In this document: piece by piece, positions 2,722-20,212 of the stretch
How positions within the stretch are numbered: the stretch's first letter is position 1
Layout: every line of letters starts with the position of its first letter
The notes under the pieces: generated by a model
Told to the model about the DNA's origin: nothing
The model's database searches: none
The model's input: only the letters and a program-made list of their open reading frames with translations
Made by a program: the position numbers and the translations under genes
Assembly: GCA_963771175.1 (NCBI GenBank)
Contig: CAVYSY010000001.1
Location: forward strand, 128,001 to 192,000
DNA: 64,000 nucleotides
Direction of reading: 5' to 3'
Source: an uncultured delta proteobacterium
GTDB lineage: Bacteria > Myxococcota > Myxococcia > Myxococcales > Myxococcaceae

Positions 2722-2805
2722 GCATACCGGCGACCCGGCCGCGCAAGGGGGGACTCCTGACCGGGTGACATGGCGAGGGGCGACGAGGCGGTAGGAGGGT
2801 CATCC

Positions 2806-4191: not shown

Positions 4192-4291
4192 CGGAGGGGC
4201 AGGCCGGGCCCGTTGAGGCTCGAGTGCCGCCACCGGGGGGCCGGTGGCGGGGGTGTACGGATGGGGTTGGAGAGGGGACGGGGACGGGGAC

Positions 4292-5362: not shown

Positions 5363-5369
5363 GGCGGGC

Positions 5370-5397
5370 GGGGCTCCACCCCGGGAGGTGGAGCTCC
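5370..5397. terminator. GC-rich hairpin between convergent genes (possible bidirectional terminator)
   Basis: GGGGCTCCACC / GGTGGAGCTCC inverted repeat with a 6-nt loop; no U-tract. Confidence 0.45.
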
Positions 5398-5402
5398 CTG
5401 TC

Positions 5403-6809: not shown

Positions 6810-7056
6810 ACGGTCCTCGGCTAGAAAAGGAGTCGGAGAGTAGGCGACACGTCTGGAGGCGTCGAATGACGGACTCCTGGCTCGTTCCTCCCTGGTTCAT
6901 GCGGTGTCCGACAGATGACCGGCCGGACCCGTCCGCTCGAACGCTCCCCATCGGGTGAAATGGGGCTCGTGGGTTGTTGGCGGGCAGGGCCGTTACCACC
7001 TTGCGGCGCACGCGGGACCTCGGGGGCCCCGCGCCGTCAGGAGCCGGACACAAATC

Positions 7057-8175
7057 ATGGAAGCCAGACAGCTCACCCCCGCGCCAGGCATCGTCGAGGT
7101 GACGGATCGCACCTCCTTCATGTCTCTCGAGCCGGAGTGGAACGCGCTCGTGGGGTCCACGGCCGACGAGCCCTTCTATCGCCATGAGTTCCTCCGGGTG
7201 TGGGTGGACAACTTCGCCCCGGAGTCGCGGCTGCGTGTGCTGACGCTGCGTGATGGGGAAGGGCACCTCGCCGCGGGCCTGCCGCTGCTGGCCGGGCGCG
7301 CCTCGATGTATGGCGTGCCGGTGCGACAGCTCTCCGCCACGGCCAACTCGCACTCGTGCCGCTTCGATTTGGTGGCGCGCGAGCCCGAGGTCGCCGCGAA
7401 GGCGTTCCTCGGACACCTGCGCGAGGACTCGAGCTGGGACGTGCTGCTGCTCACGGACGTGCCCGAGGGGGGCGCGGGCTGGACGCTGTACGAGGCGGCG
7501 AAGGCCTCGGGGCTGCCGGTGGGGACGTGGGAGTCGCTGCGGTCGCCCTACATCCCGCTGCCGGGCTCGTGGGACGAGTACCAGAAGACACTTCAGTCCA
7601 AGTTCAAGGCCAACTGCCGCCGCCGGCGCCGCAAGCTGGAGGAGAAGGGCCGCGTCACGGTGGAACGCGTGGAGGGAGGGCTCGAGCTGGAGGCACGGCT
7701 GGAGGAGGGCTTCGCGCTGGAGGCGAGCGGGTGGAAGGGCCGTCGCGGCACGGCCATGGCGCAGGACGCGCGCACCCGGGGCTTCTACTCGGAGCTGGCG
7801 CGGGACGCGGCGTACGCGGGCCGGCTGGTGCTCTATTACATGAGGCTGGACGGGCGCGCGGTGGCCTTCCAGTACGCGCTGGAGTACGGCGGGCGCTACT
7901 TCCTGCTCAAGCCCGGCTACGACGAGTCGCTGGGGGACTGCAGCCCGGGTCAGCTCCTCATGGAGGACGTGCTGCGCGACTGCATGCAGCGGGGCGTGCG
8001 CGAGCTCGACTTCCTCGGGCCGGACATGGTGTGGAAGCGGGACTGGACGGACAAGGTCCGCCGCCACACCTGGCTCTACCTCTTCAACGACACGGCTTTG
8101 GGTCGCGCGCTGTGCGCGGCGAAGTTCCGCTGGGCTCCGGTGGCCAGGGAGGTGGTGGCGCGATGGAAGCGGTGA
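7057..8175 (+). CDS. exoG: GNAT-family (CelD/BcsL-like) N-acetyltransferase
   Basis: SKFKANCRRRRRKL, KPGYDE...SPGQLL and ELDFLG...WKRDWT motifs; order within the exo locus. Confidence 0.82.
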   Translation: MEARQLTPAPGIVEVTDRTSFMSLEPEWNALVGSTADEPFYRHEFLRVWVDNFAPESRLRVLTLRDGEGHLAAGLPLLAGRASMYGVPVRQLSATANSHSCRFDLVAREPEVAAKAFLGHLREDSSWDVLLLTDVPEGGAGWTLYEAAKASGLPVGTWESLRSPYIPLPGSWDEYQKTLQSKFKANCRRRRRKLEEKGRVTVERVEGGLELEARLEEGFALEASGWKGRRGTAMAQDARTRGFYSELARDAAYAGRLVLYYMRLDGRAVAFQYALEYGGRYFLLKPGYDESLGDCSPGQLLMEDVLRDCMQRGVRELDFLGPDMVWKRDWTDKVRRHTWLYLFNDTALGRALCAAKFRWAPVAREVVARWKR

Positions 8176-9338
8176 AGCATACGAGGTTGTTCGTTCCCGC
8201 CCAGCCCACGCTGTGGCCGGGCATGCTGTTCGGCCACCGCGAGCCGAGCGGCTTCATGCCCTTCAGCGCGCCCAACGTCCGCTGGTTCTACTTCGCCCGC
8301 AACGCCGTCTGGACGACGGTGAAGATGCTGGGGCTGGACAAGGGCGAGGTGCTGATGCCGGCCTATCACCACGGTGTGGAGGTGGAGGCGGTGGTGGACG
8401 CCGGCGCCATGCCGCGCTTCTACCGGGTGGGCAGCCGCTGGGACGTGGATGTGGAGGACGTGGAGCGGTGCCTCGGGCCGAAGACGAAGGCGCTCTACCT
8501 CACCCACTACGCGGGCTTCCCGGGTCCGGTGGACGCGATGCGCGCCCTGGCGGACAAGCACGGCCTGCCGCTCATCGAGGACTGCGCCCTGTCGCTGCTG
8601 AGCGCGGATGGCTCGGTGCCGCTCGGGACGACGGGGGACATCGGCATCTTCTGCCTCTACAAGACGCTGCCGCTGCCGCACGGCGGGGCGCTCACCGTCA
8701 ACGGCCCCCGGCAGTACAGCCTGCCCGAGCCTCCCGCGCCGCCGTTCGCCTCCACGCTGAGCCACACCCTTTCCGCGCTGCTGCAGAACCTGGAGCTGCG
8801 CGGTGGGGCGTTCGGGCGCGGGGTGCGCCGCTTCATCCGGAGCCTCGGCAGGGGGGCGGTGAAGGCGGCGGACATCGAGCGGGTGGCCACGGGCACGCAG
8901 CACTTCGACAGGCGCCACGTGGACCTGGGGATGAGCCCGTTCGCGAAGCGGATCGCCCAGGCGCAGGATCTGGAGGCCATCGTCGAGCGGCGGCGGCGCA
9001 ACTACTTCTTCCTGCTGGGGCGGCTGCGGGACGTGTCGCCGCCGCTGTTCAACCAGCTCCCCGCGGGGGTGAGCCCGCTCTTCTACCCGCTGGTGGTGGA
9101 GGACAAGGCGGAGGTGCTCGCGCGGCTGCACGCGAGGGGCCTCGAGGCCATCGACTTCTGGAGGCACTTCCACCCGGCGTGCGACGCGGCGGCCTTCCCC
9201 GAGGTGGCACAGCTCCGCCGGAGCATCGTGGAGATTCCCTGCCACCAGGACCTCACGCCGGAGGTGATGGCGGAAGTGGCCACGGTGGTGCGCGGGGCGC
9301 TGACGACGGATCGCCGCAGCCGCAAGCACGCGGGCTGA
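8163..9338 (+). CDS. exoH: DegT/DnrJ/EryC1/StrS-family PLP-dependent sugar aminotransferase
   Basis: True start MEAVKH at 8163 overlaps the exoG end. EVLMPAY, THYAG, IEDCA, FCLYKTLP (PLP lysine) and IPCHQ motifs. Confidence 0.85.
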   Translation: MEAVKHTRLFVPAQPTLWPGMLFGHREPSGFMPFSAPNVRWFYFARNAVWTTVKMLGLDKGEVLMPAYHHGVEVEAVVDAGAMPRFYRVGSRWDVDVEDVERCLGPKTKALYLTHYAGFPGPVDAMRALADKHGLPLIEDCALSLLSADGSVPLGTTGDIGIFCLYKTLPLPHGGALTVNGPRQYSLPEPPAPPFASTLSHTLSALLQNLELRGGAFGRGVRRFIRSLGRGAVKAADIERVATGTQHFDRRHVDLGMSPFAKRIAQAQDLEAIVERRRRNYFFLLGRLRDVSPPLFNQLPAGVSPLFYPLVVEDKAEVLARLHARGLEAIDFWRHFHPACDAAAFPEVAQLRRSIVEIPCHQDLTPEVMAEVATVVRGALTTDRRSRKHAG

Positions 9339-9367
9339 GCTGCTGAAACAGACACGAGGTTCATACC

Positions 9368-10579
9368 GTGATTCACGAAGCGGAATTGTCTCCCAAGCCG
9401 AGCCCCGCTCTGTGGTTGGACGTGAGCGCCGTGGGGGACTTGTCGAAGCTGGCGGCCATGCGGGGCGCCTGGAACGCGCTGCTCGACGCGAGCAACGCGG
9501 GGCCCTTCAACGCGTGGGAGTGGCTGTACCCGTGGTGCCGGCGCATCGGGGCGGACCGGACGCCCTTCGTGTTGCAGGCGAAGGACCGGAGCGGCGAGCT
9601 GGTGGGGCTGATGCCGCTGGGCTTCGAGTACCAGTGGGTGCTTGGGCGTCCCATCCGGCGCCTGGCGTTCCTGGGCGAGACGCACGTGGGCAGCGACTAC
9701 CTGGACGTGGTCGCGCGGCGCGAGTGCGAGGAGGAGGTGACGCACGCCTTCGCCGGAGCCCTGTGGGAGCTGAGGGACCAGTGGGACGTACTGGACCTGA
9801 CGGACCTGCGCGAGGACTCGCTGTCGGTGCGGGTGCTGCGGGAGACCTTCGAGAAGAACCGGGCGGATTTCCGGATGTCGACGCGGTACGTGTGCCCGTA
9901 CGAGTCGCTGCCCAAGGGCGAGTCCTTCGATGACTTCCTGCGGCGCACGAGCCGGCGGGACAACTTCCTGCGCCGGAAGAAGTGGCTGGAGAAGCAGGAG
10001 GGCTACCGCATCGAGAAGACGGAGGCGCCGGGCGCGCTGGCGGGGCCGCTGACGGACTTCTTCCGGCTGCACGCGATGCGGTGGGAGTCGGACGGGGGCT
10101 CGCAGGGCATCAAGGGCCGGGGCGTCGAGGCCTTCCACCGGGATGCCACGCAACTGCTCGCCGAGCGAGGCCGGCTGCGCCTCTACACGATGAAGGTGGG
10201 GGGCCAGGCGGTGGCCTCGGTGTACGGCATCCTGCATCGGGACTCGTTCATCTACTTCCAGTCCGGCTATGACCCGGCCTGGCGCAACCGCAGCGTGGGG
10301 CTGGTGCTGGTGGGCGAGACGTTCCGCGACGCCCTCGAGGCCGGGCTCACCGAGTACGACTTCCTCCGGGGCACCGAGTCCTACAAGTCCGACTGGACGA
10401 CGCAGCAGCGGCGCACGGTGTCCCTGCGGGTGCTCTCGCCCGGCGGGGGAGGGGAGTGGCTCGTCCGGCGCGAGGCGGCGATGCGGCGGGTTCGCGAGGT
10501 GGCCCGGCGAGTGCTGCCGCGGAATGCGGTGGAGCGGGTGCGCCGGTGGCGGCGCGAGCTCGCCGCGGTGCGCGGATAG
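9368..10579 (+). CDS. exoI: GNAT-family (CelD/BcsL-like) N-acetyltransferase
   Basis: GSDYLD, YFQSGYDP...SVGLVL and YDFLRGTESYK motifs; last gene of the exo locus. Confidence 0.82.
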   Translation: MIHEAELSPKPSPALWLDVSAVGDLSKLAAMRGAWNALLDASNAGPFNAWEWLYPWCRRIGADRTPFVLQAKDRSGELVGLMPLGFEYQWVLGRPIRRLAFLGETHVGSDYLDVVARRECEEEVTHAFAGALWELRDQWDVLDLTDLREDSLSVRVLRETFEKNRADFRMSTRYVCPYESLPKGESFDDFLRRTSRRDNFLRRKKWLEKQEGYRIEKTEAPGALAGPLTDFFRLHAMRWESDGGSQGIKGRGVEAFHRDATQLLAERGRLRLYTMKVGGQAVASVYGILHRDSFIYFQSGYDPAWRNRSVGLVLVGETFRDALEAGLTEYDFLRGTESYKSDWTTQQRRTVSLRVLSPGGGGEWLVRREAAMRRVREVARRVLPRNAVERVRRWRRELAAVRG

Positions 10580-10612: not shown

Positions 10613-13600
10613 TCACTGCTGGCCGGCGCGGGACAGCACCCCGCGCCGCATGCGTGTCTGCGCCAGTCGCGCGAAGAGCAGCAGCTTCCGCTCCGCGGCG
10701 TACTTCTCCAGCACCTGGAGCTGCTCCTGGGCCGCCTTGGCGTGGCCCGCTTGCGCCTCCACCTCCGCGAGCGCGAGCCGCGCGTCACACTCGGCCAGCA
10801 CGCTGCCCAACTGCCCGGCTTCCGCCACCGTGGCCTGGAGCTGAATGTTGGCGTCCGCGTCCTGCTCGGCCGAGGCCACGAGGGCTGACGTGACCGCCCA
10901 GGCCAATTTCACCAGGGCGTTCTGGTTCGCCCTCGCGAGCGGTTCCGCCCGCTCGCACGCGGCCCGCGCGTCCGCGAGGCGCCCCTGCGCCAGTCCCACC
11001 CGCGCCAGCAGGAGGGCCGCCTCGGCCTCTCCGTCCCGCACCTTCAGCGTCTTGAAGGTCTCCTCCGCCTCTCGCAGAAGCCGTGTGGCCTCTTCCGCAC
11101 GCCCTTCTTCCAGCGCGAGCCGCCCGAGCGCGATCTGCGCTAGCGCCAGCTCGCTCCGCCCGCCCGCCTGCTTGCGGATCCGCACCGCCTCCTCGAGGAG
11201 GCCGCGGGCACGGACGAGCTCATCCGACAGCATCGCCACGTTCCCGGTGGACACCAGATTGTAGGCGATCATCCGCTGGTCCCCGATGGCCTGGGCGGAC
11301 TCGGTGCTCTCCGCGAAGTGCTTCTGCGCGATCGCCAGGTCCCCGGTCTCCAGGTAGAGGGTGCCGAGGATCCACTGGCCCGCGTGCATGCTGTAGCGGT
11401 ACTCCGTCTCCCGGCTCAGGCGAATGCCCTCGACGGCCAGCTCCTTTCCCTTCTGGAACGCCCCCTGGTGGTGGTGGATGACGGCGAGATTGACGAGCGC
11501 CCCGGCCTCCACGCGGCGGTTGCCGAGCTCGTGAGCGATCCCCACGGACTCCTCGAACAGTGCCTTGGCCCCCGCCAGATCTCCTTGCATCAACAGGCAG
11601 TCCGCGAAGCCGTGGAGTCCGGTGGCCACGCCCTGCCGGTAGCCGAGCTCCCGCCAGATGCGCACGGCCTCGCCGAACAGCCGCTTGGCCTCCTCGTAGT
11701 CCCCCGCGCCGTGGGCGATGATGGCCATCTGCTTGAGCGTCTTGGCCTCGGCGTTCCGGTCCCCGGCGGCGGTGAAGATGCGGCGGGCCTCCTCGCAGAT
11801 AGCGAGGGCCTCCTCGGGGGGCTTGCCCAGACGCAGCAGCGCGTGTCCCTTCACCGAGAGGGCCTGCGCCACCAGCAGTCGCGCGCCTTGCTCCGTGCCC
11901 TCCTTCGCCGCCCGACCCGCCGCCTCCAGCGCGCCCTTGTAGTCGGACGTGGCGTCCATCACCTCGGCCTGGGCGAGGTGGAGCCGGCCCCGTTCCGAAG
12001 CCGAGGCGGGGAGCTGCTGGAGCTCCTCCAGCACACCGAGCGCGTCCCGGCCATGCCCACCGGAGAGCTGCGCGGAGGCCAGCTTCAGGCCGTAGTCGAG
12101 GTTGTCCGGATAGGTCTTGTAGAGGGTGTCGTAGATGTCGATCGCCTTGTCCCACTCCTTGCCGAACTCGCGCAGGCGTCCGTCCACCAGGAGGCGATCC
12201 GCGCGGTTCAGGGTGCCGGCCAGCGCGAGGGCCTTCTGTGCCTCCTCCAGCGCGCGGGTGTCATAGCCGAGCGTGGACCAGGCCTCCGCCAGGGCGGAGT
12301 GGGCCAGGGCGTACTGGGGATCCGCCTCCACGGCCTGCGTGAGCCGCTCCTGGGCCAGGAGCGTGTCATAGCTGCGGAGGTGGGAGAGCCCCTCGGCGTA
12401 GTACCGCAGCGCGTCCGCGTTGGCCGGCAGCGAGGCTCGCGCGTCCGGGCTGTTGGAGGTGGCGTCTTCGGCGCCGAGACGTCCACGAAGGCGCGCGCCC
12501 ATCCGGGAGATGAGCTTGAGCACATCCTCCATCATATCGGTCTCCGTGAGGGTGGTGAGGGTGTCACCAGTCGCGGTGTCCTGGAGCCGCACCACCAGTC
12601 GGAGCTGCCCGCCCGAGGAGCCCGGGACCGCCAGGTACGAGCCCAGCACGACGTAGTCCGTGCCGAGGTTCGCGTGGAGCCTTGCCAGGGTGTCCCTGGA
12701 GAGCCCGTCGCTGTCCTTCAGGGCCAGCTCCTGCTTGAGGCGGATGACGTTCTCGCCGGGGATGGTCCGGAGATCCTCCACGGCCGCCAGCTCCGCGAGC
12801 AGCATCTCGGCGAGCGCGGGGGACAGCCAGGCCACGTCCGGGTTCCCCGAGAGGTTCTTGAAGCCGAGCACCGCCACGACCCGGCGGGATCGGCTCTCTC
12901 CCCGAGGTGCCCGGCCGCCAACCAGCAGCCGGAGACCGGGACACGACACCACACCGGTGGCGCCCGCGAGCAGGAGTGCCCCCGCGGTGAGGAGGACGGT
13001 CCTCCGCCGCACCCGTGACGGCGCGAACCCCGGGGCGCGCGCGCGTCGCACCTTGTGGCCATCTCCGGGCGGCGGCGACAGGGGCGCGAAGCCCGGTATG
13101 CCTACCTCACAAATCTCGGTCGGTTCCTCCACTCCGGCGAAGACGTATGGCCCGTGGACCACCCACTCGGGGGCGCGCTCGGAATGGCTGGTGCCCACGA
13201 AGGCCCGGCGAGCCAGGTCGAAGGCGGCGCGCGTCATCAGCGTCTGTCGGGCGATCGCCAGTGACATGGTGCGGGCCGCCACCGGCTTGGCCAGTCCCTC
13301 GACCTCCACGGGCTTGGCTCCCCGTGCCACCGCGGCCGGTGGATTCTCGTGGAGGAACACCTCGCCCAGGTGGATGCCCGCCCGTGCCGCCAGCGGCACA
13401 CCCAGCTCCACGCCCAACGCGGCCAACGCCTGGTGGTAGGCGAGCGCGTAGCGGGTCGCATCCACCGGCCGGTCGAAGAGGAGGAGGAAGCCGTCGGTCT
13501 TGTCGATCTCCTGGCCCCCGTGCGCGCGGAGCAGGTCGCGGGCAAGCCGGTCGTGACGGTTGAAGAGCTGCGCGGCGCGGGTATCGCCCAGCGTCTCCAC

Positions 13601-14440
13601 CATTCGGGTGCTCTCGACGAGATCCGTCATCAGCAGGGTGCGGATGGCGATGCTCGGCTGGGCGGCAACGGTCAGCGCCCGGCTCACCTGGCGGGCGCTG
13701 GCGAAGCGGGCGTGCGGGTCGCGATCGAGACAGCAGAGGATGGCCTCGCGCCATCCCGGGTCCATCCCCGCGAGCCGGGGGAGCAGGGCCCCGTCGAGCA
13801 CCTCCGGGGAGGGCCGCTCGCCCGTCACCATCTCCAGGAGAACGGCGCCGAGTGCCCAGAGGTCGGAGCGGGTCGTCGCCGGTGCGCCCTCGCGCTGCTC
13901 GGGGGCGGGGTGGGGCAGCTCGGTCGCGGAGGGTTCGCGGCCCAGCTCGAAACCCATCACCAGGGCGCGGAGTCCGGCCCCACCGGGCACCAGCACCACG
14001 CGGGAGCTCGAGAGCGCCCGGTGGACGAGCCCCGCCTCGTGGGCCGCCGCCAGTCCTTCGACGAGCTGGTTGGCCAGCGCCAGCGCCTCCGGCCCCATCA
14101 GCCGTCCCCGGTGACGCAGGTGCTGCTCGAGCGTCTCGCCCTCCAGGAACTCCGTCACGAGGAAGGTGGACTCGGTGCCGGACGCGTCACGGTCGCGGAC
14201 GAGATCCAGCACCCGGCTGACGTTGGCATGTGACACGCCGCGGGCCTGGTTGAACTCGCGTCGCAGCCGCGTCATGGCTTCCGCGGAGGCGGCCACTTCC
14301 GGGCGCATGCGAGTGAGCATGACGGGCTGCTCGAGCGTGAGGTCGAGCGCCTCGTGGACATCCTCCCAGCCGGGACGGGCGATGCTCCGCCGCAGCAGGT
14401 AGCGCTGGGCAATGAGCTGCTCGTCCACCTTAGAAGTCAT
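10613..14440 (-). CDS. Membrane signalling protein: degenerate Ser/Thr kinase + class III nucleotide cyclase-like domain + TM + TolB-N-like + TPR repeats
   Basis: Kinase fold (HANVSRVLD, APE, DLWALG) with HRA in place of HRD and no DFG. Cyclase motifs LMTDLVEST, IDKTDGFLLLF, RAGIHLGEV, VEGLAKPVAAR. Hydrophobic helix VLLTAGALLLAGATGVV, then VAVLGFKNLSG and many TPR-like helices. Confidence 0.8.
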   Translation of the reverse strand: MTSKVDEQLIAQRYLLRRSIARPGWEDVHEALDLTLEQPVMLTRMRPEVAASAEAMTRLRREFNQARGVSHANVSRVLDLVRDRDASGTESTFLVTEFLEGETLEQHLRHRGRLMGPEALALANQLVEGLAAAHEAGLVHRALSSSRVVLVPGGAGLRALVMGFELGREPSATELPHPAPEQREGAPATTRSDLWALGAVLLEMVTGERPSPEVLDGALLPRLAGMDPGWREAILCCLDRDPHARFASARQVSRALTVAAQPSIAIRTLLMTDLVESTRMVETLGDTRAAQLFNRHDRLARDLLRAHGGQEIDKTDGFLLLFDRPVDATRYALAYHQALAALGVELGVPLAARAGIHLGEVFLHENPPAAVARGAKPVEVEGLAKPVAARTMSLAIARQTLMTRAAFDLARRAFVGTSHSERAPEWVVHGPYVFAGVEEPTEICEVGIPGFAPLSPPPGDGHKVRRARAPGFAPSRVRRRTVLLTAGALLLAGATGVVSCPGLRLLVGGRAPRGESRSRRVVAVLGFKNLSGNPDVAWLSPALAEMLLAELAAVEDLRTIPGENVIRLKQELALKDSDGLSRDTLARLHANLGTDYVVLGSYLAVPGSSGGQLRLVVRLQDTATGDTLTTLTETDMMEDVLKLISRMGARLRGRLGAEDATSNSPDARASLPANADALRYYAEGLSHLRSYDTLLAQERLTQAVEADPQYALAHSALAEAWSTLGYDTRALEEAQKALALAGTLNRADRLLVDGRLREFGKEWDKAIDIYDTLYKTYPDNLDYGLKLASAQLSGGHGRDALGVLEELQQLPASASERGRLHLAQAEVMDATSDYKGALEAAGRAAKEGTEQGARLLVAQALSVKGHALLRLGKPPEEALAICEEARRIFTAAGDRNAEAKTLKQMAIIAHGAGDYEEAKRLFGEAVRIWRELGYRQGVATGLHGFADCLLMQGDLAGAKALFEESVGIAHELGNRRVEAGALVNLAVIHHHQGAFQKGKELAVEGIRLSRETEYRYSMHAGQWILGTLYLETGDLAIAQKHFAESTESAQAIGDQRMIAYNLVSTGNVAMLSDELVRARGLLEEAVRIRKQAGGRSELALAQIALGRLALEEGRAEEATRLLREAEETFKTLKVRDGEAEAALLLARVGLAQGRLADARAACERAEPLARANQNALVKLAWAVTSALVASAEQDADANIQLQATVAEAGQLGSVLAECDARLALAEVEAQAGHAKAAQEQLQVLEKYAAERKLLLFARLAQTRMRRGVLSRAGQQ

Positions 14441-14582
14441 TCATCCCGTCCGGAAACCAGAGGCGCCGGATTCTGCCACATGCCCGGAGTCGGCACAGGA
14501 CGTATCCGATGACGGTTGGCCCATATCCACGAAGCGGTCTTGCTTGTTGCCTCCTCCCCTCGGGACTACATTCGCGCACCCA

Positions 14583-16451
14583 ATGAGGATAGCTCTCGTC
14601 GTGATGCCGCTCGCGGCGGCGGATCGCCCGAGCTTGGCGGTGGGGCTGCTGCAAGCTGCGCTGAAGGCCCGGGGCTTCGAGTGCCACGCCAAATACTTCA
14701 ACGTCCTGCTCTGGAAGATGTTGGGCCAGGAGGCGTACGGCGGGCTCGCCCAGCGCGCGTCGATGACGTGCCTGGGGGGTGAGTGGGCGTTCTCGCAAGC
14801 CTACTGGGGCACGCGCTTTTCCCACTGGGAGTCCTTCTCGCGCGAGGTTCTCGAGCATCCCGTCTGGGGCGCGAGCTCCGAGGAGCGCGAGTCCATCTGG
14901 CGGCTGAAGGAGCTGGCCCCCGCCTTCTTGCGTCTGGCCTTCGAGTCCTGTGACTGGGGCCAGTACGATCTCGTGGGCTTCACCAGCACGTTCGAGCAGA
15001 CGATGCCGAGTCTGTGTCTTGCCCGGATGATCCGCGAGCGCTACCCGCGGGTGCGGCTGGTGATGGGAGGCGCCAACTTCGAGGGCCGGATGGGGCGGCC
15101 GTACCTGGAGCACTTCGACTTCCTGGACTACGTGTCGACGGGGGAGGCGGACGACTCGTTCCCGCGCCTGTGCGAGAACCTCCGAGCGGGCCGGCGGGAG
15201 GTGCCGCCGGGCTTTCTCCATCGCGAGGGGGGCGAGCTCCGGGACTCACCGAGGGAGCGGGCCACGGGGCCCACCGCTCTCGACGCGCTGCCGACGCCGG
15301 ATTTCGAGGACTACTTCCGGGTGGCGAGTGCCAGCACGCCCGGGGGCCAATCGCTGGTGAACTGGCTGCCGGTGGAGGCTTCGCGGGGATGCTGGTGGGG
15401 CGAGCGCTCCCACTGCACCTTCTGTGGCCTGAACGGCGAGACGATGGCCTTCCGGAAGAAGAGCTGGCGCCGGGTAGTGGACGAGTCGGAGGAGCTGGTC
15501 CGGCGTCACGGCGTGGGCGCGCTCCAGTTCGCGGACAACATCCTGGCGATGAGCTACTTCGAGGAGCTGCTCCCCTTCTGGGCGAAGCAGCCGGAGGGCC
15601 CGTACAAGTTCTTCGAGATCAAATCCAACCTGAAGCGCCGCCAGGTGGGCCTGCTCCGGGAGGCGAAGGTCACGAGGGTGCAGGCCGGGGTGGAGAGCCT
15701 CCTGGATGGGACGCTCAAGCTGATGCGCAAGGGGGTGACCGGCGCGCAGAACGTGGCGCTCCTCCGCTGGTGTACGGAGCTCGGCATCCACCCCTCGTGG
15801 AACCTGCTCTACGGCTTCCCGGGGGAGGACCTGGCCGGGTACGCCGAGCAGCGCGCGCTGATGGAGAAGCTCGTCCACCTCGCGCCGCCCGTGGCCTGTG
15901 CCCCCATTCGCATGGATCGCTTCAGCCCCAACTTCATGAGCTGGCGTGAGCACGGCTTCGCCCGGATGGAGCCCATGCCCGCGTACCGGCATGTGTTCCC
16001 GTTCCCGGAGGACACGCTCCGCGAGCTGGCCTACTTCTTCCAGTACGAGCATTCGCGGTTCGGGCAGGCGTTGGAGCTGGGTTCCGGGCTGGAGGCGTTC
16101 CGACAGTCCTGGGTGGAGCGGGCCGGGCGCGGCGAGAGCGGGGAGCTGGCGGTGAAGCCCCATTGGCAGGGGGGCTATGTCCTGGTGGACACCCGTTTCA
16201 CGCATCCACGCTCCGCGGTCCGGTTGGACGAGGACACGCTGGCGCTGTTGCTCGCGTGTGATGCGCCCACCTCTCAGGAGGCGGCGCTGAAGAGCGCGGT
16301 CCAGGCCCGGTCGGGCAGGGCGGCCGAGCTCTCGGCCAGGCTGACGGAGCTTCTCGCGCAGAACGTGATCGCGCGGGTGGGGTCTCTCATGGTCACATTG
16401 GCGCTGTTGCCAGAAGGGCTGTCGCTGCAGCCGCTTCGTCGTGCAACCTAG
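14583..16451 (+). CDS. Cobalamin-dependent RiPP-maturation radical SAM C-methyltransferase (TIGR03975-like)
   Basis: N-terminal B12-binding region (VMP...PSLAVGLL, VGFTSTFEQ, MGGAN, GEAD); cluster motif SRGCWWGERSHCTFCGLN (CX7CX2C); FADNIL, QAGVESL, WNLLYGFPGE and DRFSP motifs. Confidence 0.88.
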   Translation: MRIALVVMPLAAADRPSLAVGLLQAALKARGFECHAKYFNVLLWKMLGQEAYGGLAQRASMTCLGGEWAFSQAYWGTRFSHWESFSREVLEHPVWGASSEERESIWRLKELAPAFLRLAFESCDWGQYDLVGFTSTFEQTMPSLCLARMIRERYPRVRLVMGGANFEGRMGRPYLEHFDFLDYVSTGEADDSFPRLCENLRAGRREVPPGFLHREGGELRDSPRERATGPTALDALPTPDFEDYFRVASASTPGGQSLVNWLPVEASRGCWWGERSHCTFCGLNGETMAFRKKSWRRVVDESEELVRRHGVGALQFADNILAMSYFEELLPFWAKQPEGPYKFFEIKSNLKRRQVGLLREAKVTRVQAGVESLLDGTLKLMRKGVTGAQNVALLRWCTELGIHPSWNLLYGFPGEDLAGYAEQRALMEKLVHLAPPVACAPIRMDRFSPNFMSWREHGFARMEPMPAYRHVFPFPEDTLRELAYFFQYEHSRFGQALELGSGLEAFRQSWVERAGRGESGELAVKPHWQGGYVLVDTRFTHPRSAVRLDEDTLALLLACDAPTSQEAALKSAVQARSGRAAELSARLTELLAQNVIARVGSLMVTLALLPEGLSLQPLRRAT

Positions 16452-16465
16452 GAGGGGAACAACGC

Positions 16466-16796
16466 ATGTCGAATCTCATCAGGTATCTGCTCACCGTGGA
16501 TTCCACGACGGGAGCAACGGTGAAGGTGGAGCGGTTGGGAGAGGCGGGCGAGCTCACGGAGGTTCCCGTCGGAGTCGATCCCCAGTCCACAGGGGATGGT
16601 CACCCCGTCGTCACCGCAGTCCGTGGTGGTCAACATCTACATGGGCGGGCCCCAGCCCACGGTGACAACCGGCCCGGCCCATCCGTCGCAGAAGGGCGGA
16701 GCCACGGTCCGGAGCGGCTCTCCTTCCCTTTCCGATGCCGAGCCGCCGCCGCCGGACATCATCCCGGGCGGTGGTTCGCACCGCGAGGGTAGCTAG
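16466..16796 (+). CDS. Small (~109 aa) protein, candidate RiPP precursor or rSAM partner; probable frameshift in GGGG at 16592-16595
   Basis: Strong RBS (AGGAGG) 15 nt after the rSAM stop. High-GC3 codon pattern switches frame at the G run, giving MSNLIRYLLTVD...PQSTGMVTPSSPQSVVVNIYMGG...PPPPDIIPGGGSHREGS. Confidence 0.6.
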
Positions 16797-16832
16797 GGGC
16801 ATCGCGCGGCGGTGGTGGGGAAGGAGGGCGGT

Positions 16833-17777
16833 CTACTTCCTTCCCAGCTCGGAGCGGAGCTGCTGGATGGCCATGAGCAGCGGCGGCGGCTGCATGCTGG
16901 CCGGCACCTCCACCGCGAAGCGCTCGAACTTCTCCAGCGCGCTCGCCTTGTCGCCCCGGCGCACCGCGAGCGCGCCCACGAACAGCAGCGCCTCCTGGGC
17001 GTCCGGGTACGTGTCCACCAGCTTCATCAGCTCCTGCTCCGCGCCGGTCTCGTCGCCGCGCACGGCCCGCAGCACGCCCTTGTGGACCCGCAGCTCCACA
17101 TGGAAGGGATCCACCGCCAGCCCGCGCAGCGTGACGCGCTCGGCGTCCTCGTACATCTGCTGCCGGATGAGCTCGTGGCTCAGCAGGGATGCGGCATCCA
17201 GGTCCGACGGATTGGCCTTCACGCGCTCCCACGCCTCGGCCATCTCCTGGTCCATCTGCGGCTCGCCCTGCTGCTGCGCGTTCGCCGCCATGCCCGGAGG
17301 CACCCGGCCGGTCGCCGAGTCTTCCTCGCCGCGCGGACGCTGCTCGGACACCAGCAGGTAGCCCAGGAAGCCGAAGAACAGCACGATGGCCGCGCCCCAC
17401 AGCGCGCCCTGGAGCTGGGGCGAGAGGGCGCCCTGGGACACGGGCGCCGACCGCGGCGCGGACGCCGTGTCTCCGCCGCCCTGCTTCTTCAGGTGCTCGT
17501 CCTTGGCGCGCAGCGCCGCCGCGGCCTCCAGCTCCAGCCGCGTGCGCTCGGCCTCGTACCGCTCCGTCGGGAGCGAGTGCTTGTCCGCCGCCAGCTCCTT
17601 GAGCTGCTCGATGAGGGACTGGTAGCGCCGCTCCAGGTCCTCGAGCGCACCGTCACGTGGCGCCTGCGCGCTCGCGGCCTTGCTGCGGCTCACGAAGAGG
17701 AAGAACGCCGCGGTGACGAAGCCCACCGCGAGCACGATGATGCCAGGCAGCCAGTTGGTGGTGGTCGAAGGGTTCAT
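16833..17777 (-). CDS. CcmI/CycH-like TPR membrane protein for cytochrome c maturation
   Basis: Two TM helices separated by a coiled segment (YQSLIEQLKEL...YEAERTRLE), C-terminal TPRs; start overlaps the ccmH stop. Confidence 0.7.
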   Translation of the reverse strand: MNPSTTTNWLPGIIVLAVGFVTAAFFLFVSRSKAASAQAPRDGALEDLERRYQSLIEQLKELAADKHSLPTERYEAERTRLELEAAAALRAKDEHLKKQGGGDTASAPRSAPVSQGALSPQLQGALWGAAIVLFFGFLGYLLVSEQRPRGEEDSATGRVPPGMAANAQQQGEPQMDQEMAEAWERVKANPSDLDAASLLSHELIRQQMYEDAERVTLRGLAVDPFHVELRVHKGVLRAVRGDETGAEQELMKLVDTYPDAQEALLFVGALAVRRGDKASALEKFERFAVEVPASMQPPPLLMAIQQLRSELGRK

Positions 17778-18271
17778 TGATCCAGCTCCCGGCGCACGGC
17801 CGCGAGGTACGGGTCCACGGAGTCGTTGGTGGAAGAGGGGGCAGCGGGCGTGGGAGGCGCGGCCGCCGGGGCGGACGGCTCGGGCTCGCGCCGCACCTGC
17901 CGGTAGATGACGAAGCCTCCGCCGAGCAGCAGGACCACGGGCCCCAGCCACACGAAGAGGTTGAAGCCCTCGGCCTTGGGCTGCAGCAGCACCCACTCAC
18001 CGTAGCGGGCCACGAAGTACTCGCGGACCTCCTGGTCCGACTTCCCGGCGGACACGAGCTCGCGGATTTTATCGAGCTGGGCGCGGGCCATGGAGGAGGG
18101 GCTGTCCGCGACGGACAGGCCCTGGCACACGGCGCAGCGCAGCTCCTTGCCGAGTGTCTGGACGCGGGCCTCCAGGGGAGGCGCGAGGGGTTCACTTCCG
18201 GCCTGCTGGGGCGCGTACTGGCCCGTGGCGATGCCGAGGAAGAGGGTGAGCGAGAGGAGGGCAGCGGTCAT
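17774..18271 (-). CDS. ccmH: Cytochrome c-type biogenesis protein CcmH
   Basis: Signal peptide, LRCAVCQGLSVADS motif, YFVARYGEWVLLQP, C-terminal TM. Confidence 0.9.
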   Translation of the reverse strand: MTAALLSLTLFLGIATGQYAPQQAGSEPLAPPLEARVQTLGKELRCAVCQGLSVADSPSSMARAQLDKIRELVSAGKSDQEVREYFVARYGEWVLLQPKAEGFNLFVWLGPVVLLLGGGFVIYRQVRREPEPSAPAAAPPTPAAPSSTNDSVDPYLAAVRRELDQ

Positions 18272-19051: not shown

Positions 19052-20212
19052 ATGTCGCGCCGGTCATCCGCTGACACCTCCCTACCCGGTTCCCCTTCCG
19101 TGGTCCTCGATGCCGGGTTGGCGTCGTACGAGCTCGTCCGGACGTTGGGACAGGGCCACCATGGCGAGCTGCTGCTGGCCCGCCAGCGCTACCACCATGG
19201 GCTCGGGGGTCTCACCCTCCTCAAGCGGCTCAACAAGGTGGCGCGGCAGCTCGACTACCAGCGGCTGGTGGAGGAGGCGCGGCTGGGGGGGCAGCTCCAG
19301 CACCCCAACATCGCCTCCGTGCAGCTCATGTGCGGTACCGCGGAGGAGCCCGTCCTCCTCATCGCCTATGTCGAGGGGGACCTGCTCGGTGACCTGATGC
19401 GTCGGGCGGCCGGGATGGACCTGTCCCTCTCGGAGGCCTTTGCCTGCCATGTGACCGCGGAGGTCGCGGACGCGCTGCACTACGCGCACGCGCTCGTCGA
19501 CGAGAGGGGCCGGTCCCTGGGCATCGTCCACCGGGATGTGACGCCCCAGAGCATCCTCCTCGGTCGCCAGGGCGAGGTGAAGCTGATGGACTTCGGGGGG
19601 GCCTGGTCCCGCCTGGAGGGGCGCATGTCCACGGAGGGGGACACCGACATGGTCCCCCTGGCGTACAGCTCTCCCGAGCGGGTCTCGATGGATCCGCTCG
19701 ACGGGCGCTCGGACCTGTTCTCCCTGGGGCTCGTCTTCCTGCGGCTCCTCACCGGCCGGCACCTCTTCGACGCCGACGCCCGTTACGAGGCCGAGCTGCG
19801 TGCCCGTCAGCTCCGGGCGCGCGGGGACTTCCCCGGGGCCAGCCGGGTGCCGGGGCTCGAGGAGTTGGGCCCCCCTCGCACCACCGACCTGATGCGGCGC
19901 ATCCGCCTCCTGAGCACGCGGCAGGTGGAGGAGGCCACGCGCTCGTTGCCAGAGGGGCTGCGCCCCGTCCTCCACCGGGTGCTGGCGCCGAAGCGGGAGG
20001 ACCGTTACCCAACAGGGGCGGAGCTGAGCCAGGCCCTCCGCGACTACCTGTGGGCATCCGGCCAGCGGTATGGGCGGATGGAGCTGGCGGCGGAGGTGTC
20101 CGCCCTGCACGAGGCCGCCCTGCGGGACGGGGAGGGGGAGCCCTCCGGCGACTCGAAACGGGAGGGGGCGGCGTCTCGGGGACGCCGTAAGGGACCTGTC
20201 AGGGAGTCCTGA
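19052..20212 (+). CDS. Serine/threonine protein kinase (myxobacterial type)
   Basis: LGQGHHG, LLKRL, HPNIASV, HRDVTPQSILL, DFG, YSSPE and DGRSDLFSLG motifs. Confidence 0.85.
   Translation: MSRRSSADTSLPGSPSVVLDAGLASYELVRTLGQGHHGELLLARQRYHHGLGGLTLLKRLNKVARQLDYQRLVEEARLGGQLQHPNIASVQLMCGTAEEPVLLIAYVEGDLLGDLMRRAAGMDLSLSEAFACHVTAEVADALHYAHALVDERGRSLGIVHRDVTPQSILLGRQGEVKLMDFGGAWSRLEGRMSTEGDTDMVPLAYSSPERVSMDPLDGRSDLFSLGLVFLRLLTGRHLFDADARYEAELRARQLRARGDFPGASRVPGLEELGPPRTTDLMRRIRLLSTRQVEEATRSLPEGLRPVLHRVLAPKREDRYPTGAELSQALRDYLWASGQRYGRMELAAEVSALHEAALRDGEGEPSGDSKREGAASRGRRKGPVRES

What the first reader, a model, noticed from the sequence alone, without database searches (positions are those of the whole stretch)
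10613..16796. Compact three-gene candidate RiPP signalling system: TPR-cyclase receptor, B12 radical SAM methyltransferase and small peptide
Seen: a membrane pseudokinase/cyclase/TPR gene shares a 142-bp divergent gap with a CX7CX2C B12 radical SAM gene followed by a small ORF, all between core loci (exoI and the CcmI-like gene). No protease, transporter or other tailoring gene is present. Known: TIGR03975-type enzymes C-methylate ribosomal peptides. The cyclase motifs (TDL..ST, ID..DG, VEGLAKP.AAR) resemble, from memory, the 'putative peptide modification system cyclase' family (TIGR04510) found beside precursor peptides. Inference: a methylated peptide or protein is made here and sensed or regulated by the cyclase-TPR receptor. 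I do not recognise this as a described system.
Basis: partly seen in the sequence, partly recalled or inferred. Interest (0 to 1): 0.82.

Follow-up and report, generated by a model that had tools for sequence, protein, structure and literature searches.

The report
Methylated-peptide cassette with membrane receptor
A myxobacterium-like genome carries a three-gene set, a small precursor peptide, a vitamin-B12 radical enzyme that probably methylates it, and a membrane receptor-like protein, and the peptide belongs to a widespread family that no database or paper searched here describes.

Summary
The radical SAM gene (14583-16451) is a clear TIGR03975 / PoyC-like B12 C-methyltransferase: 580 bits against a cut-off of 282, with the Cx7Cx2C motif. 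The 1275-aa gene (10613-14440, minus strand) is a single-pass membrane protein. Its cytoplasmic part has a dead kinase and a divergent cyclase-like domain; TolB-like and TPR domains lie beyond the membrane helix. TIGR04510 is its best family but it scores 301, below the cut-off of 400, so it is a relative and not a member.

The small ORF is mis-delimited. The real gene starts at 16466 behind AGGAGG and is frameshifted near 16573-16608 in this assembly.

Intact relatives define an unnamed precursor-like family (54 representative clusters). It has a folded 40-residue leader, a VVxNIY-GG strand and a variable Pro/Gly tail with short motifs such as IIPGG, repeated up to seven times.

Peptide and enzyme are adjacent in a Thermoanaerobaculia genome and fused in Archangium lipolyticum. 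Across 80 TIGR03975 loci, large signalling proteins, mostly carrying TPR repeats, make up 19 of 41 large neighbours but 4 of 44 distant ORFs.

A peptide-maturation pair linked to a receptor is well supported. Methylation itself, and sensing of the peptide, remain untested.

The parts
10613..14440 (-). Receptor-like gene, 1275 aa: pseudokinase, cyclase-like domain, one membrane helix, TolB-like domain, TPR array
   Evidence: Translation. NCBIfam TIGR04510 300.7 bits against a cut-off of 400. Pfam Pkinase, TPR_12 and TPR_MalT.
13655..14422 (-). Pseudokinase domain (residues 7-262); catalytic Lys, HRD Asp and DFG Asp all replaced
   Evidence: Alignments to StkP and PknA. The same decay is seen in the myxobacterial homologues P0127-P0144, whereas P0145 and many others keep all motifs.
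13061..13648 (-). Divergent class III cyclase-like domain (residues 265-460). Both metal Asp residues are kept; the transition-state Asn position is Pro.
   Evidence: Alignment to the Rv1900c/LipJ and Ma1120 cyclase domains. Motif conservation over 74 homologues: that position is Pro in 58% of rows and Pro or Leu in the eight commonest motif variants printed, none with Asn. Pfam Guanylate_cyc gave no hit at E<=0.01.
12941..12997 (-). Single predicted membrane helix (residues 482-500)
   Evidence: Kyte-Doolittle 19-residue mean of 1.99; the only segment above 1.6.
10616..12928 (-). Presumed extracytoplasmic sensor: TolB-like domain (about residues 505-680) and TPR array (about 680-1275)
   Evidence: tblastn of these pieces finds the same modules in L002 and L022. 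One source (JGI) names two homologues 'TolB-like protein'. Pfam TPR hits. The topology is inferred.
14441..14582 (.). 142-bp divergent intergenic spacer
   Evidence: No sigma-70-like promoter was found by the consensus scan.
14583..16451 (+). B12-binding radical SAM enzyme, 622 aa, TIGR03975 (PoyC-like RiPP C-methyltransferase family)
   Evidence: 580.3 bits against a cut-off of 281.85, profile positions 1-606 of 606. AF2 model pLDDT 89.8. Best Foldseek matches are the B12 radical SAM enzymes OxsB, CysS, TokK, TsrM and MgmA.
15390..15425 (+). Cx7Cx2C iron-sulfur cluster motif (C270, C278, C281)
   Evidence: Invariant in 24 of 24 aligned sequences. The review PMC11285071 (passages) calls this motif unique to PoyC.
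16146..16397 (+). C-terminal domain with three strands, then three helices, then a hairpin (RRE-like topology), residues 522-605
   Evidence: Secondary structure of the AF2 model. No Pfam hit for this part at E<=10, so the RRE reading is inferred from topology only.
16450..16455 (+). AGGAGG ribosome-binding site overlapping the radical SAM stop codon
   Evidence: Sequence.
16466..16594 (+). Leader part of the precursor-like peptide (first reading frame)
   Evidence: Homologous to residues 1-40 of P0250, P0251, P0252 and to the L002 peptide. A local HMM scores 70.3 bits. The AF2 model of homologue P0252 folds residues 1-40 with pLDDT 85-94.
16573..16608 (+). Zone in which the reading frame must shift by +1; it holds the homopolymers CCCC (16580), GGGG (16592) and CCCC (16603)
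   Evidence: Third-position GC profile. Three-frame translation compared with the intact homologue P0252.
16596..16796 (+). C-terminal part of the peptide (second frame, open from 16524). VVVNIY-MGG lies at 16623-16649 and the single IIPGG motif at 16758-16772.
   Evidence: Translation. Matches the SVVINIFMGG and AAIIPGG segments of P0252.

Best explanation
This is a compact peptide-maturation cassette coupled to a membrane signalling protein.

The operon 14583-16796 encodes a PoyC-like cobalamin radical SAM enzyme and, translationally coupled just behind it, its substrate. That substrate is a precursor-like peptide of a family that carries no name in the libraries searched. It has a folded leader of about 40 residues (three strands), a conserved VVxNIY-GG strand, and a disordered Pro/Gly-rich tail with a short hydrophobic motif. 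The motif is IIPGG here and is tandemly repeated in relatives.

Inferred mechanism: the leader docks on the enzyme's C-terminal RRE-like domain. The enzyme then methylates unactivated side-chain carbons of Ile or Val, either in the tail motif or in the VVxNIY strand.

The divergent gene encodes a single-pass receptor-like protein. Its TolB-like and TPR region is predicted to lie outside the cytoplasm and to act as the sensor. Its cytoplasmic output is a dead kinase plus a cyclase-like domain. This protein is functionally tied to the pair, either controlling it or responding to its product; the direction is unresolved.

Shown: family memberships, domain anatomy, conservation, synteny and fusion, and enrichment of TPR signalling neighbours. 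Inferred: methylation, its site, the topology, and any binding.

In this assembly the peptide gene is frameshifted, so the system may be inactive here, or the shift may be a sequencing error.
For: Enzyme:
- TIGR03975 at 580 bits, well above the cut-off.
- Invariant Cx7Cx2C motif, the PoyC hallmark; PoyC C-beta-methylates Ile and Val (PMC11285071, passages).
- B12 radical SAM fold.

Peptide:
- AGGAGG and ATG lie directly after the enzyme's stop codon.
- L002 has an intact 72-aa homologue in the same position.
- Word-indexed and exhaustive searches gave 8 and 54 relatives. Most have a conserved leader (53 of 60 by regex). A 4-residue word occurs three or more times in the tail in 18 of 60.
- The leader folds confidently while the tail is disordered.

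Linkage:
- P0009 of Archangium lipolyticum is one 771-aa ORF, with TIGR03975 over residues 3-605 followed by the peptide.
- P0260 joins the end of a radical SAM enzyme to a peptide.
- P0250 and radical SAM homologue P0007 both report a contig of 17495 nt.

Receptor link:
- The arrangement in the window.
- L002 has two kinase/TolB-like genes flanking the pair; the downstream one also has TPR.
- Archangium Cb G35 locus tags 43435 and 43445.
- Six equal contig lengths between the two homologue lists.
- Across 80 TIGR03975 loci, 19 of 41 ORFs of at least 650 aa within 1 kb of the enzyme are kinase-, SARP- or cyclase-type signalling proteins, 17 of them with TPR. Only 4 of 44 such ORFs at 4 kb or more are (Fisher p = 1.7e-4).
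Against: - No chemistry was tested. B12 radical SAM enzymes in RiPP pathways can do other reactions, for example the C-C cross-linking by PbsB (PMC12257519, passages).
- The peptide gene is out of frame in the window.
- The closest locus in the genome collection by radical SAM identity, L001 (59%), lies inside the window's clade on the tree. Yet it sits in an NHLP-like/YcaO/SagB cluster with neither this peptide nor a receptor. Enzymes of this clade are therefore not bound to this cassette.
Direct neighbourhood evidence is thin.
- No exporter or leader protease is nearby. A periplasmic sensor would need the peptide to be exported.
- The C-terminal domain has no Pfam match.
- The equal-contig-length argument is indirect.
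- Kinase-TPR proteins are common in these phyla; the control ORFs also come from only 80 loci, and some of those hold kinase arrays.
Confidence: 0.6

Rival explanations
1. The methylated peptide, or fragments cut from its repeats, is exported and acts as an autocrine or paracrine signal. It binds the receptor's extracytoplasmic TolB-like/TPR region, which signals through the cyclase-like/pseudokinase module.
For: The TolB-like/TPR sensor module stays constant while the output differs. L002 has active kinases. Relatives of 950-1050 aa have a cyclase only. The window clade has pseudokinase plus cyclase. A TPR-bearing signalling neighbour recurs across phyla with kinase, SARP or cyclase-ATPase outputs. 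The peptide tails are hypervariable and repeated, as expected of strain-specific signals. There is one membrane helix between output and sensor.
Against: No signal peptide is visible in the peptide sequences, and no exporter or protease was found in the scanned flanks. The SARP and cyclase-ATPase partners have no convincing membrane helix, so their TPR arrays would be cytoplasmic; one common ligand location does not fit all. Binding could not be modelled.
Confidence: 0.22
2. The receptor-like protein is an ordinary cluster-situated regulator. It senses an unrelated cue and merely controls, or is co-regulated with, the radical SAM operon. Alternatively it is an unrelated neighbour.
For: SARP/NB-ARC/TPR regulators are usual pathway regulators in actinomycetes (recalled, not from a call), and they are the partner type in 7 actinomycete loci. 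Kinase-TPR genes are numerous in Acidobacteriota; L022 alone holds five kinase hits. L001 shows an enzyme of the same clade working without such a partner.
Against: The window protein has no DNA-binding domain. The enrichment right beside the enzyme (19 of 41 against 4 of 44) argues against chance. So does the retention of the partner between Myxococcota and Acidobacteriota in the peptide-bearing clade.
Confidence: 0.3
3. The TPR protein is a biosynthetic accessory: a scaffold or substrate-presenting partner of the radical SAM enzyme, as the NCBIfam name 'peptide modification system cyclase' implies. It would not be a sensor.
For: The best family is TIGR04510. The TPR region also hits NF041717, the 'cyclophane-containing RiPP biosynthesis TPR protein HaaT', at 73 bits. 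TPR arrays bind extended peptides (general knowledge).
Against: Both hits are far below their cut-offs (301 against 400; 73 against 1125). A membrane helix separates the TPR array from the cytoplasm, where a radical SAM enzyme must work. The enzyme has its own RRE-like domain.
Confidence: 0.08
4. In this genome the cassette is a decaying remnant. The precursor is a frameshifted pseudogene, the kinase domain is dead and the cyclase lacks its catalytic Asn, so nothing functional is made.
For: The frame change within 16573-16608. Kinase motifs are lost. The cyclase Asn position is Pro.
Against: Both halves of the peptide keep coding-type third-position GC and the conserved motifs. The shift zone holds three 4-base homopolymers, a typical place for assembly errors. 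The radical SAM and receptor ORFs are intact and 90-92% identical to relatives. The kinase and cyclase substitutions are conserved across the clade, which suggests selection and not decay.
Confidence: 0.2

Closest known systems
PoyB/PoyC and the proteusin (polytheonamide) pathway; NCBIfam TIGR03975
   Same: The enzyme family is the same (above cut-off, full-length match), as are the Cx7Cx2C motif and the B12 radical SAM fold. A ribosomal peptide is encoded next to the enzyme.
   Different: The precursor has no NHLP or Nif11 leader; there was no NCBIfam or Pfam hit for 10 and 5 peptides respectively, even at E<=10. No epimerase, dehydratase or N-methyltransferase is present. The tail is Pro/Gly-rich with short repeated motifs. 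The partner is a membrane receptor-like protein.
NCBIfam TIGR04510 'putative peptide modification system cyclase', with its companion TIGR04511 'putative peptide maturation dehydrogenase'
   Same: Cyclase-like domain followed by TolB-like and TPR regions, matching profile positions 5-624 of 814. It stands beside a peptide-modifying enzyme.
   Different: The score is below the curated cut-off in the window and in 13 of 13 homologues tested. The window has an extra N-terminal pseudokinase. The neighbouring enzyme is a B12 radical SAM enzyme, not a SagB-type dehydrogenase. I recall a companion peptide model (TIGR04509) but no call showed it, and none of the peptides matched any model.
TOMM system kinase/cyclase fusion protein (TIGR03903)
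   Same: Kinase plus cyclase in one protein, encoded beside a RiPP pathway. It gave a weak hit of 66.7 bits over the kinase part.
   Different: The score is far below the cut-off of 705.75. The pathway type is different (azoline-forming).
TvgA/TvgB poly-cyclopropylglycine peptides
   Same: The precursor is built of a short repeated motif with an aliphatic residue followed by Gly-Gly (TVGG), modified repeatedly by one radical SAM enzyme (PMC9062424, abstract).
   Different: TvgB comes from a screen of peptide-modifying radical SAM enzymes 'known to bind up to three [4Fe-4S] clusters' (PMC9062424, abstract); it is not shown to be of the B12/TIGR03975 type. The chemistry is cyclopropanation. The leader is different.
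RRNPP-type peptide quorum sensing (Rap, NprR, PlcR, PrgX); recalled, not from a call
   Same: A small gene-encoded peptide paired with a TPR-domain receptor.
   Different: RRNPP receptors are cytoplasmic, found in Firmicutes, and bind unmodified imported peptides. Here the TPR array is predicted to lie outside the membrane, the peptide is probably modified, and the outputs are kinase or cyclase domains.
SARP/NB-ARC/TPR (AfsR-like) pathway regulators
   Same: In 7 actinomycete TIGR03975 loci (L007, L042, L051, L052, L064, L066, L072) the neighbour is BTAD plus TPR, with NB-ARC also detected in five of them. This is the same 'output plus TPR' logic.
   Different: They are soluble DNA-binding activators. 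The window protein has no DNA-binding domain and sits in the membrane.

Membership tests
TIGR03975 RiPP maturation radical SAM C-methyltransferase (PoyC-like) | Profile score above the curated cut-off over the full length | tested here: met
   580.3 bits against 281.85; residues 3-608 match profile positions 1-606 of 606.
TIGR03975 RiPP maturation radical SAM C-methyltransferase (PoyC-like) | Cx7Cx2C cluster motif in place of CxxxCxxC | tested here: met
   C270, C278 and C281 are invariant in 24 of 24 sequences. The motif is described for PoyC in PMC11285071.
TIGR03975 RiPP maturation radical SAM C-methyltransferase (PoyC-like) | N-terminal cobalamin-binding domain and B12 radical SAM fold | tested here: met
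   Pfam B12-binding is weak (20.5 bits against 32.1). The AF2 model (pLDDT 89.8) matches OxsB, CysS, TokK, TsrM and MgmA at E of 1e-11 to 1e-15.
TIGR03975 RiPP maturation radical SAM C-methyltransferase (PoyC-like) | Catalyses C-methylation of a ribosomal peptide | not testable with these tools
   Needs expression and mass spectrometry.
TIGR04510 putative peptide modification system cyclase | Profile score above the curated cut-off (400 bits) | tested here: not met
   300.7 bits. All 13 homologues tested score 148-319 bits.
TIGR04510 putative peptide modification system cyclase | Cyclase-like domain followed by a TPR-containing region | tested here: met
   Profile positions 5-624 of 814 align to residues 266-904.
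Class III adenylate/guanylate cyclase (catalytically competent) | Two metal-binding Asp residues, plus the transition-state Asn and Arg | tested here: not met
   The Asp residues and the Arg are present. The Asn position is Pro in the window (58% of 74 homologues) and Pro or Leu in the eight commonest motif variants printed, none with Asn. Pfam Guanylate_cyc gave no hit at E<=0.01.
Hanks-type Ser/Thr protein kinase (active) | Gly-rich loop, VAIK Lys, HRD Asp, DFG Asp | tested here: not met
   All four are replaced. The fold is retained (Pkinase 55.6 bits).
RiPP precursor peptide (generic) | Small gene beside the modifying enzyme, with a conserved leader and a variable core | tested here: met
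   Adjacent in the window and in L002, and fused in P0009. The leader regex matches 53 of 60 family members, while the tails are hypervariable and often repeated.
RiPP precursor peptide (generic) | The peptide is post-translationally modified and the leader is removed | not testable with these tools
   No protease was found nearby. Needs experiment.
Proteusin precursors (NHLP or Nif11 leader) | Match to the NHLP (TIGR03793) or Nif11-type leader models | tested here: not met
   No such hit for 10 peptides at E<=10. The model is in the library, since it hit the L001 ORF at 37.2 bits.
RRE (PqqD-like) leader-binding domain in the enzyme | Three strands followed by three helices (winged helix), or a PqqD profile match | tested here: inconclusive
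   The topology is present at residues 522-592 of the AF2 model. There is no Pfam hit at E<=10. The domain could not be compared on its own.

The most novel reading that the evidence does not exclude
Myxococcota, Acidobacteriota and other phyla may use a so far unrecognised class of ribosomal peptides as modified signalling molecules. These peptides carry a folded mini-leader and tandem 'aliphatic pair plus Pro/Gly' cores, C-methylated by PoyC-like B12 enzymes. Each would be paired with a dedicated receptor whose TolB-like/TPR sensor reads the peptide. The receptor's output module (kinase, cyclase or SARP) has been swapped repeatedly in evolution. That would amount to a Gram-negative counterpart of peptide quorum sensing, built on radical methylation.
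Probability: 0.15. Interest if true: 0.85.

Novelty: new variant of a known kind. Interest (0 to 1): 0.62.

Why it matters
C-methylation of unactivated carbons in ribosomal peptides is so far known mainly from proteusins, bottromycins and a few others. Here the same enzyme family serves a precursor family with no name in Pfam or NCBIfam and no hit in the paper library. That family has 54 representative clusters at 50% identity.

Its multi-copy short cores would make it a convenient system for studying the substrate rules of PoyC-like enzymes and for engineering methylated peptides.

Receptor-like TPR signalling proteins recur beside TIGR03975 enzymes, with outputs that differ by phylum. This raises a testable question: are some radical-SAM-modified peptides signals and not antibiotics? 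That would bear on cell-cell communication in social bacteria such as myxobacteria.

Tried and rejected
- Complex prediction for enzyme plus peptide was not available, so no binding test was made for enzyme-peptide or receptor-peptide.
Accession-based adjacency could therefore not be checked beyond the two locus tags printed.
It returned mostly relatives of 32-42% identity, and no Archangium or Hyalangium genome. The peptide HMM found only the window and L002 among 81 sequences.
- The protein-atlas search gave no usable hit for P0252.
- Foldseek of the peptide model gave 0 matches at E<=0.001.
- Pfam on the enzyme's C-terminal 123 and 183 residues gave nothing.
- Promoter and terminator scans of 14300-17100 found none; this is uninformative for this high-GC organism.
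- One Pfam call was too large. It was replaced by a local phmmer screen and two smaller Pfam calls.
- The phmmer screen used queries taken from the neighbours themselves, so it is biased towards them. The counts given in this report rest on the library scans (Pfam; NCBIfam).
- The idea that the peptide is a TIGR04509-type or NHLP-type precursor was rejected, since no model matched.
- The idea that L001 is an orthologous cassette was rejected: it is an NHLP-like/YcaO/SagB cluster.

Full report
**What is in the sequence**

The region is about 70% G+C. The minus-strand ORF 10613-14440 encodes 1275 aa. The plus-strand radical SAM ORF is open from 14412. Its homologues begin at the residues encoded from ATG 14583 (MRIALVVMP; consensus of 24 sequences). 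The enzyme ends at TAG 16449-16451. AGGAGG at 16450-16455 overlaps that stop codon, and an ATG follows at 16466.

**The enzyme**

- P0003 (622 aa) scores 580.3 bits on TIGR03975, 'RiPP maturation radical SAM C-methyltransferase'. The cut-off is 281.85 and the match covers the whole profile.
- C270-x7-C278-x2-C281 is invariant in 24 of 24 aligned sequences.
- A review of RiPP methyltransferases (PMC11285071, passages read) calls Cx7Cx2C unique to PoyC. It states that PoyC C-beta-methylates Ile3 and Val5, 10 and 21 of the polytheonamide precursor.
- The AF2 model is confident (pLDDT 89.8, pTM 0.89).
- Its best Foldseek matches are all cobalamin radical SAM enzymes: OxsB, CysS, TokK, TsrM and MgmA, at E of 1e-11 to 1e-15.
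- By sequence, the only solved relative is TokK (E = 3.6e-7).
- Residues 522-605 of the model form three strands, three helices and a hairpin. That is the order of elements in RiPP recognition elements, but no Pfam model matches this part even at E<=10. The RRE reading is therefore an inference.

**The receptor-like protein**

*Kinase domain.* Residues 7-262 are a protein-kinase fold (Pkinase 55.6 bits). In alignments to StkP and PknA, VAVK is VMLT, HRDLK..N is HRALS..R and DFG is MGF. It is a pseudokinase.

I aligned 47 kinase-bearing homologues. The myxobacterial group P0127-P0144 and the window have lost all these motifs. A second group has lost the HRD motif and most of the Gly-rich loop but keeps DFG. 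Many others (P0145, P0147, P0150 and further) keep all of them. The dead kinase thus descends from an active one.

*Cyclase-like domain.* Residues 265-460 align to the cyclase domains of Rv1900c/LipJ and Ma1120. Both metal-binding Asp residues and the Arg are kept. The transition-state Asn position is Pro. Over 74 homologues this position is Pro in 58% of rows, and it is Pro or Leu in the eight commonest motif variants printed, none with Asn. EIDKxDGF, GIHLGE and VEGLAK are 80-100% conserved. This is a constrained but probably non-canonical cyclase-like domain.

*Membrane helix and sensor region.* One hydrophobic helix (residues 482-500) is the only segment above threshold. The rest consists of a TolB-like region and TPR arrays. 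With the nucleotide-using domains in the cytoplasm, the TolB-like/TPR part should lie outside. This topology is inferred.

*Family.* TIGR04510, 'putative peptide modification system cyclase', is the best family at 300.7 bits but falls below its cut-off of 400. All 13 homologues tested also fall below it, at 148-319 bits. The protein belongs to a sister group of that family, not to the family itself.

**The small ORF**

Neither frame alone is the gene.
- The frame from ATG 16466 (P0004) has coding-type third-position GC only up to about 16545.
- Beyond that point the frame of P0005 (16596-16796, open from 16524) carries it.

Locus L002, a Thermoanaerobaculia MAG whose radical SAM enzyme is 50% identical, has an intact 72-aa ORF in the same place (11883-12101). 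It aligns to both parts. A search with the two-row alignment found 8 proteins. Among them, P0252 (122 aa) covers in a single frame the window's N-terminal part and its C-terminal part, including SVVINIFMGG and AAIIPGG.

The window gene is therefore shifted by +1 between about 16573 and 16608. That stretch holds CCCC, GGGG and CCCC runs. I cannot tell an assembly error from a real mutation.

**The peptide family**

An exhaustive profile search of 1.84 billion representatives found 54 proteins at E<=1e-3 and 10 at E<=1e-10. I examined 60 peptides, P0245-P0304.
- 53 match a simple leader pattern ([YF]-aliphatic-aliphatic-[TS]-x-[DNE]). The seven that miss it are the L002-type peptides, which have V at the T/S place, and the fused P0260.
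- 23 match a strict pattern for the second conserved element, VV[IV]N[IV][YF]. More carry it by eye in the alignment.
- 33 have a 4-residue word repeated in the tail. In 18 a word occurs three times or more; some of these are plain Pro or Gly runs.

Clear tandem cores, with copy number:
- PGIIPGGP, 4 copies (P0250)
- AIIPGGPPPP, 3 copies (P0251)
- E[KR]IIPTPGP, 4 copies (P0263)
- ASIVHxP, 7 copies (P0274)
- ASIVNQPS, 4 copies (P0287)
- PMMWPGTQTA, 3-4 copies (P0282)
- PGIIMGGTP, 2 copies (P0284)
- APGWISP, 3 copies (P0297)
- xVGPGGPAPS, 5 copies (P0256)

The window has one DIIPGGG. The L002 type ends in GPIIRG.

AF2 folds residues 1-40 of P0252 with pLDDT 85-94 (three strands and a helix) and leaves the rest at 50-60. 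Nothing in the PDB resembles this fold (0 matches at E<=0.001). No Pfam or NCBIfam model matches any peptide at E<=10, apart from two chance-level rows. The Atlas search gave nothing usable.

A conserved folded leader joined to a hypervariable, repeated tail is the signature of a multi-core RiPP precursor.

**Linkage of peptide and enzyme**
- The window and L002 show direct adjacency.
- P0009, named by NCBI as the radical SAM C-methyltransferase of Archangium lipolyticum, is 771 aa. TIGR03975 covers residues 3-605 and a complete peptide of this family follows in the same ORF.
- P0260 joins the end of a radical SAM enzyme to a peptide ending in AVIIPGS.
- P0250 and the 90%-identical enzyme P0007 both report a longest contig of 17495 nt.

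On the enzyme tree a clade with full support and a long stem holds eleven rows: the window, P0007, P0009, P0010, P0013, L001, P0021, P0045, P0083, P0105 and L002.

Against a strict rule, L001 lies inside that clade but sits in a different cluster. That cluster has an NHLP-like ORF (37.2 bits, below the cut-off of 50.9), a YcaO/SagD cyclodehydratase and a SagB dehydrogenase. It has no peptide of this family and no receptor.

**Linkage to the receptor**
- In L002 the pair is flanked by two kinase/TolB-like genes (7456-9867 and 12107-15610, both minus strand). Both have intact kinase motifs and no cyclase domain; the downstream one also has TPR repeats.
- In Archangium sp. Cb G35 the enzyme homologue is BO221_43435 and the receptor homologue is BO221_43445.
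- Six contig lengths are shared between the two truncated lists of 120 hits: 96107, 315310, 45371, 21883, 4426 and 6494. This is indirect evidence.

*A wider pattern among the 80 TIGR03975 loci.* I took non-overlapping ORFs of at least 650 aa.
- Of the 41 that end within 1 kb of the enzyme, 19 are signalling proteins; it is 20 if L068 is counted, which only my local phmmer screen detected.
  - Ser/Thr kinase with TPR or TolB-like parts: L002 (two genes), L017, L022, L034, L047, L050, L074, L079, L080.
  - Kinase with PD40 repeats: L041.
  - SARP/BTAD with TPR, NB-ARC also detected in five: L007, L042, L051, L052, L064, L066, L072.
  - Cyclase/ATPase/TPR: L069.
- Of the 44 ORFs lying 4 kb or more away, 4 are kinases (L022, L044, L074, L076) and none is a SARP or cyclase.
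- Fisher's exact test gives p = 1.7e-4.
- One near ORF (L002:12611-16153, plus strand) is a wrong-strand shadow of the real minus-strand gene and was counted as that gene.
- Other near neighbours are subtilases (4), YcaO (2), MacB-type permeases (2), histidine kinases (2) and proteins with no family hit.

The association occurs in several enzyme clades. The TPR part is the most constant element, seen in 17 of the 19, while the output domain changes with phylum.

**A sister precursor type**

Directly after the enzyme in L050, L034, L022 and L049 lie Lys/Ala-rich ORFs of 37-58 aa. They end in a short hydrophobic motif: VGCIFPG, RGPILGNGND, DLIGTPMHFGKAAKR and DVGVI. Their enzymes form one clade (95% support). 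The three whose upstream flank is available have a kinase-TPR gene upstream. The motif theme (Gly or Pro, an aliphatic pair, then Pro or Gly) is shared with IIPGG, GPIIRG and the PGCIFRGP of P0293. This points to that motif as the likely site of modification. The conserved VVxNIY strand is the alternative site.

**Context in the window**
- Upstream lie a polyprenyl glycosylphosphotransferase (2770-4191), a YvcK-like gene (4244-5362) and two GNAT acetyltransferase paralogues (6955-8175 and 9368-10579).
- Downstream lie a weak TPR protein (16833-17996, minus strand) and a 386-aa Ser/Thr kinase (19052-20212).
- This fits a polysaccharide locus, but I could not verify the name 'exoI'.
- No protease or transporter was found there.

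**Literature**
- No paper in the library holds 'TIGR04510', 'TIGR04509' or 'peptide modification system cyclase'.
- Three papers hold 'TIGR03975' (two listed, listing only).
- The leader and core motifs return only unrelated proteomics and other papers (14 papers, listing only).
- A term search for B12 radical SAM with TPR or cyclase found only the biphenomycin papers. Passages of PMC12257519 show that a B12 radical SAM enzyme, PbsB, can cross-link instead of methylate. This is why methylation is stated here as likely and not as shown.
- TvgA/TvgB (PMC9062424, abstract) is the nearest published analogue of a repeated aliphatic-Gly-Gly core. It was found in a screen of a different radical SAM subfamily, one that binds up to three [4Fe-4S] clusters.
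- PMC10288494 (passages) lists a PoyB group annotated as B12-dependent C-methyltransferases and does not mention this cassette.
- Supplements of these papers were not opened. A precursor list there could in principle hold this family.

**Verdict**

The enzyme assignment is solid. The peptide is real but frameshifted here, and it founds a precursor family that Pfam, NCBIfam and the searched papers do not name. The receptor-like gene is a non-member relative of TIGR04510 and is linked to the pair beyond chance.

Noticed in passing
window 16573-16608: The precursor peptide gene changes reading frame by +1 within a stretch that holds three 4-base homopolymers. This is either an assembly error or a true frameshift.
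   Followed up: partly
P0009 (Archangium lipolyticum, 771 aa) and P0260 (188 aa): Natural read-through or fusion ORFs that join the radical SAM enzyme to a complete peptide of the family. P0260 lacks the enzyme's C-terminal domain.
   Followed up: partly
L050 12071-12184; L034 5397-5564; L022 12137-12262; L049 2467-2643: Lys/Ala-rich, histone-tail-like small ORFs lie right after TIGR03975 enzymes and end in a short hydrophobic motif (VGCIFPG, RGPILGNGND, DLIGTPMHFGKAAKR, DVGVI). They look like a second candidate precursor type that matched no model in NCBIfam.
   Followed up: partly
80 loci (for example L047 7703-9997, L042 6492-9422, L069 6135-9464): TIGR03975 enzymes are recurrently flanked by large signalling proteins, 17 of 19 with C-terminal TPR arrays, whose output domain differs by phylum (Ser/Thr kinase, SARP/NB-ARC, cyclase/ATPase). 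The count is 19 of 41 near ORFs against 4 of 44 distant ones.
   Followed up: yes
L001 5833-11851: A Myxococcaceae MAG has an NHLP-like precursor, a YcaO/SagD cyclodehydratase, a SagB dehydrogenase and a radical SAM enzyme that nests inside the window's enzyme clade. The same enzyme lineage therefore serves two different precursor types.
   Followed up: partly
P0127-P0199 (homologues of window 10613-14440): A graded series of kinase-domain decay in kinase/cyclase/TolB-like/TPR proteins: fully canonical; HRD and most of the Gly-rich loop lost with DFG kept; all motifs lost. The cyclase-like motifs stay conserved throughout.
   Followed up: partly
P0255 (160 aa), P0261 (177 aa): Two peptides of the family carry two leader domains in tandem within one ORF.
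   Followed up: no
L014 5129-7147; L015 8013-9983; L030 8067-10070; L043 11833-13797: In another set of TIGR03975 loci the large neighbour is a subtilase (Peptidase_S8), a possible leader protease. The window lacks one.
   Followed up: no
window 2770-10579: A polysaccharide-type gene run: polyprenyl glycosylphosphotransferase, YvcK-like protein, FAD monooxygenase-like protein and two GNAT (Acetyltransf_6) paralogues. One ORF-rich stretch, 8076-9346, has no family hit on either strand.
   Followed up: partly
window 16833-17996 (minus strand) and 19052-20212 (plus strand): A weakly scoring TPR protein lies convergent to the peptide gene, and a short 386-aa Ser/Thr kinase lies just beyond it. Whether they belong to the cassette is unknown. 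In L002 the convergent downstream gene is the second kinase/TolB-like/TPR protein.
   Followed up: no
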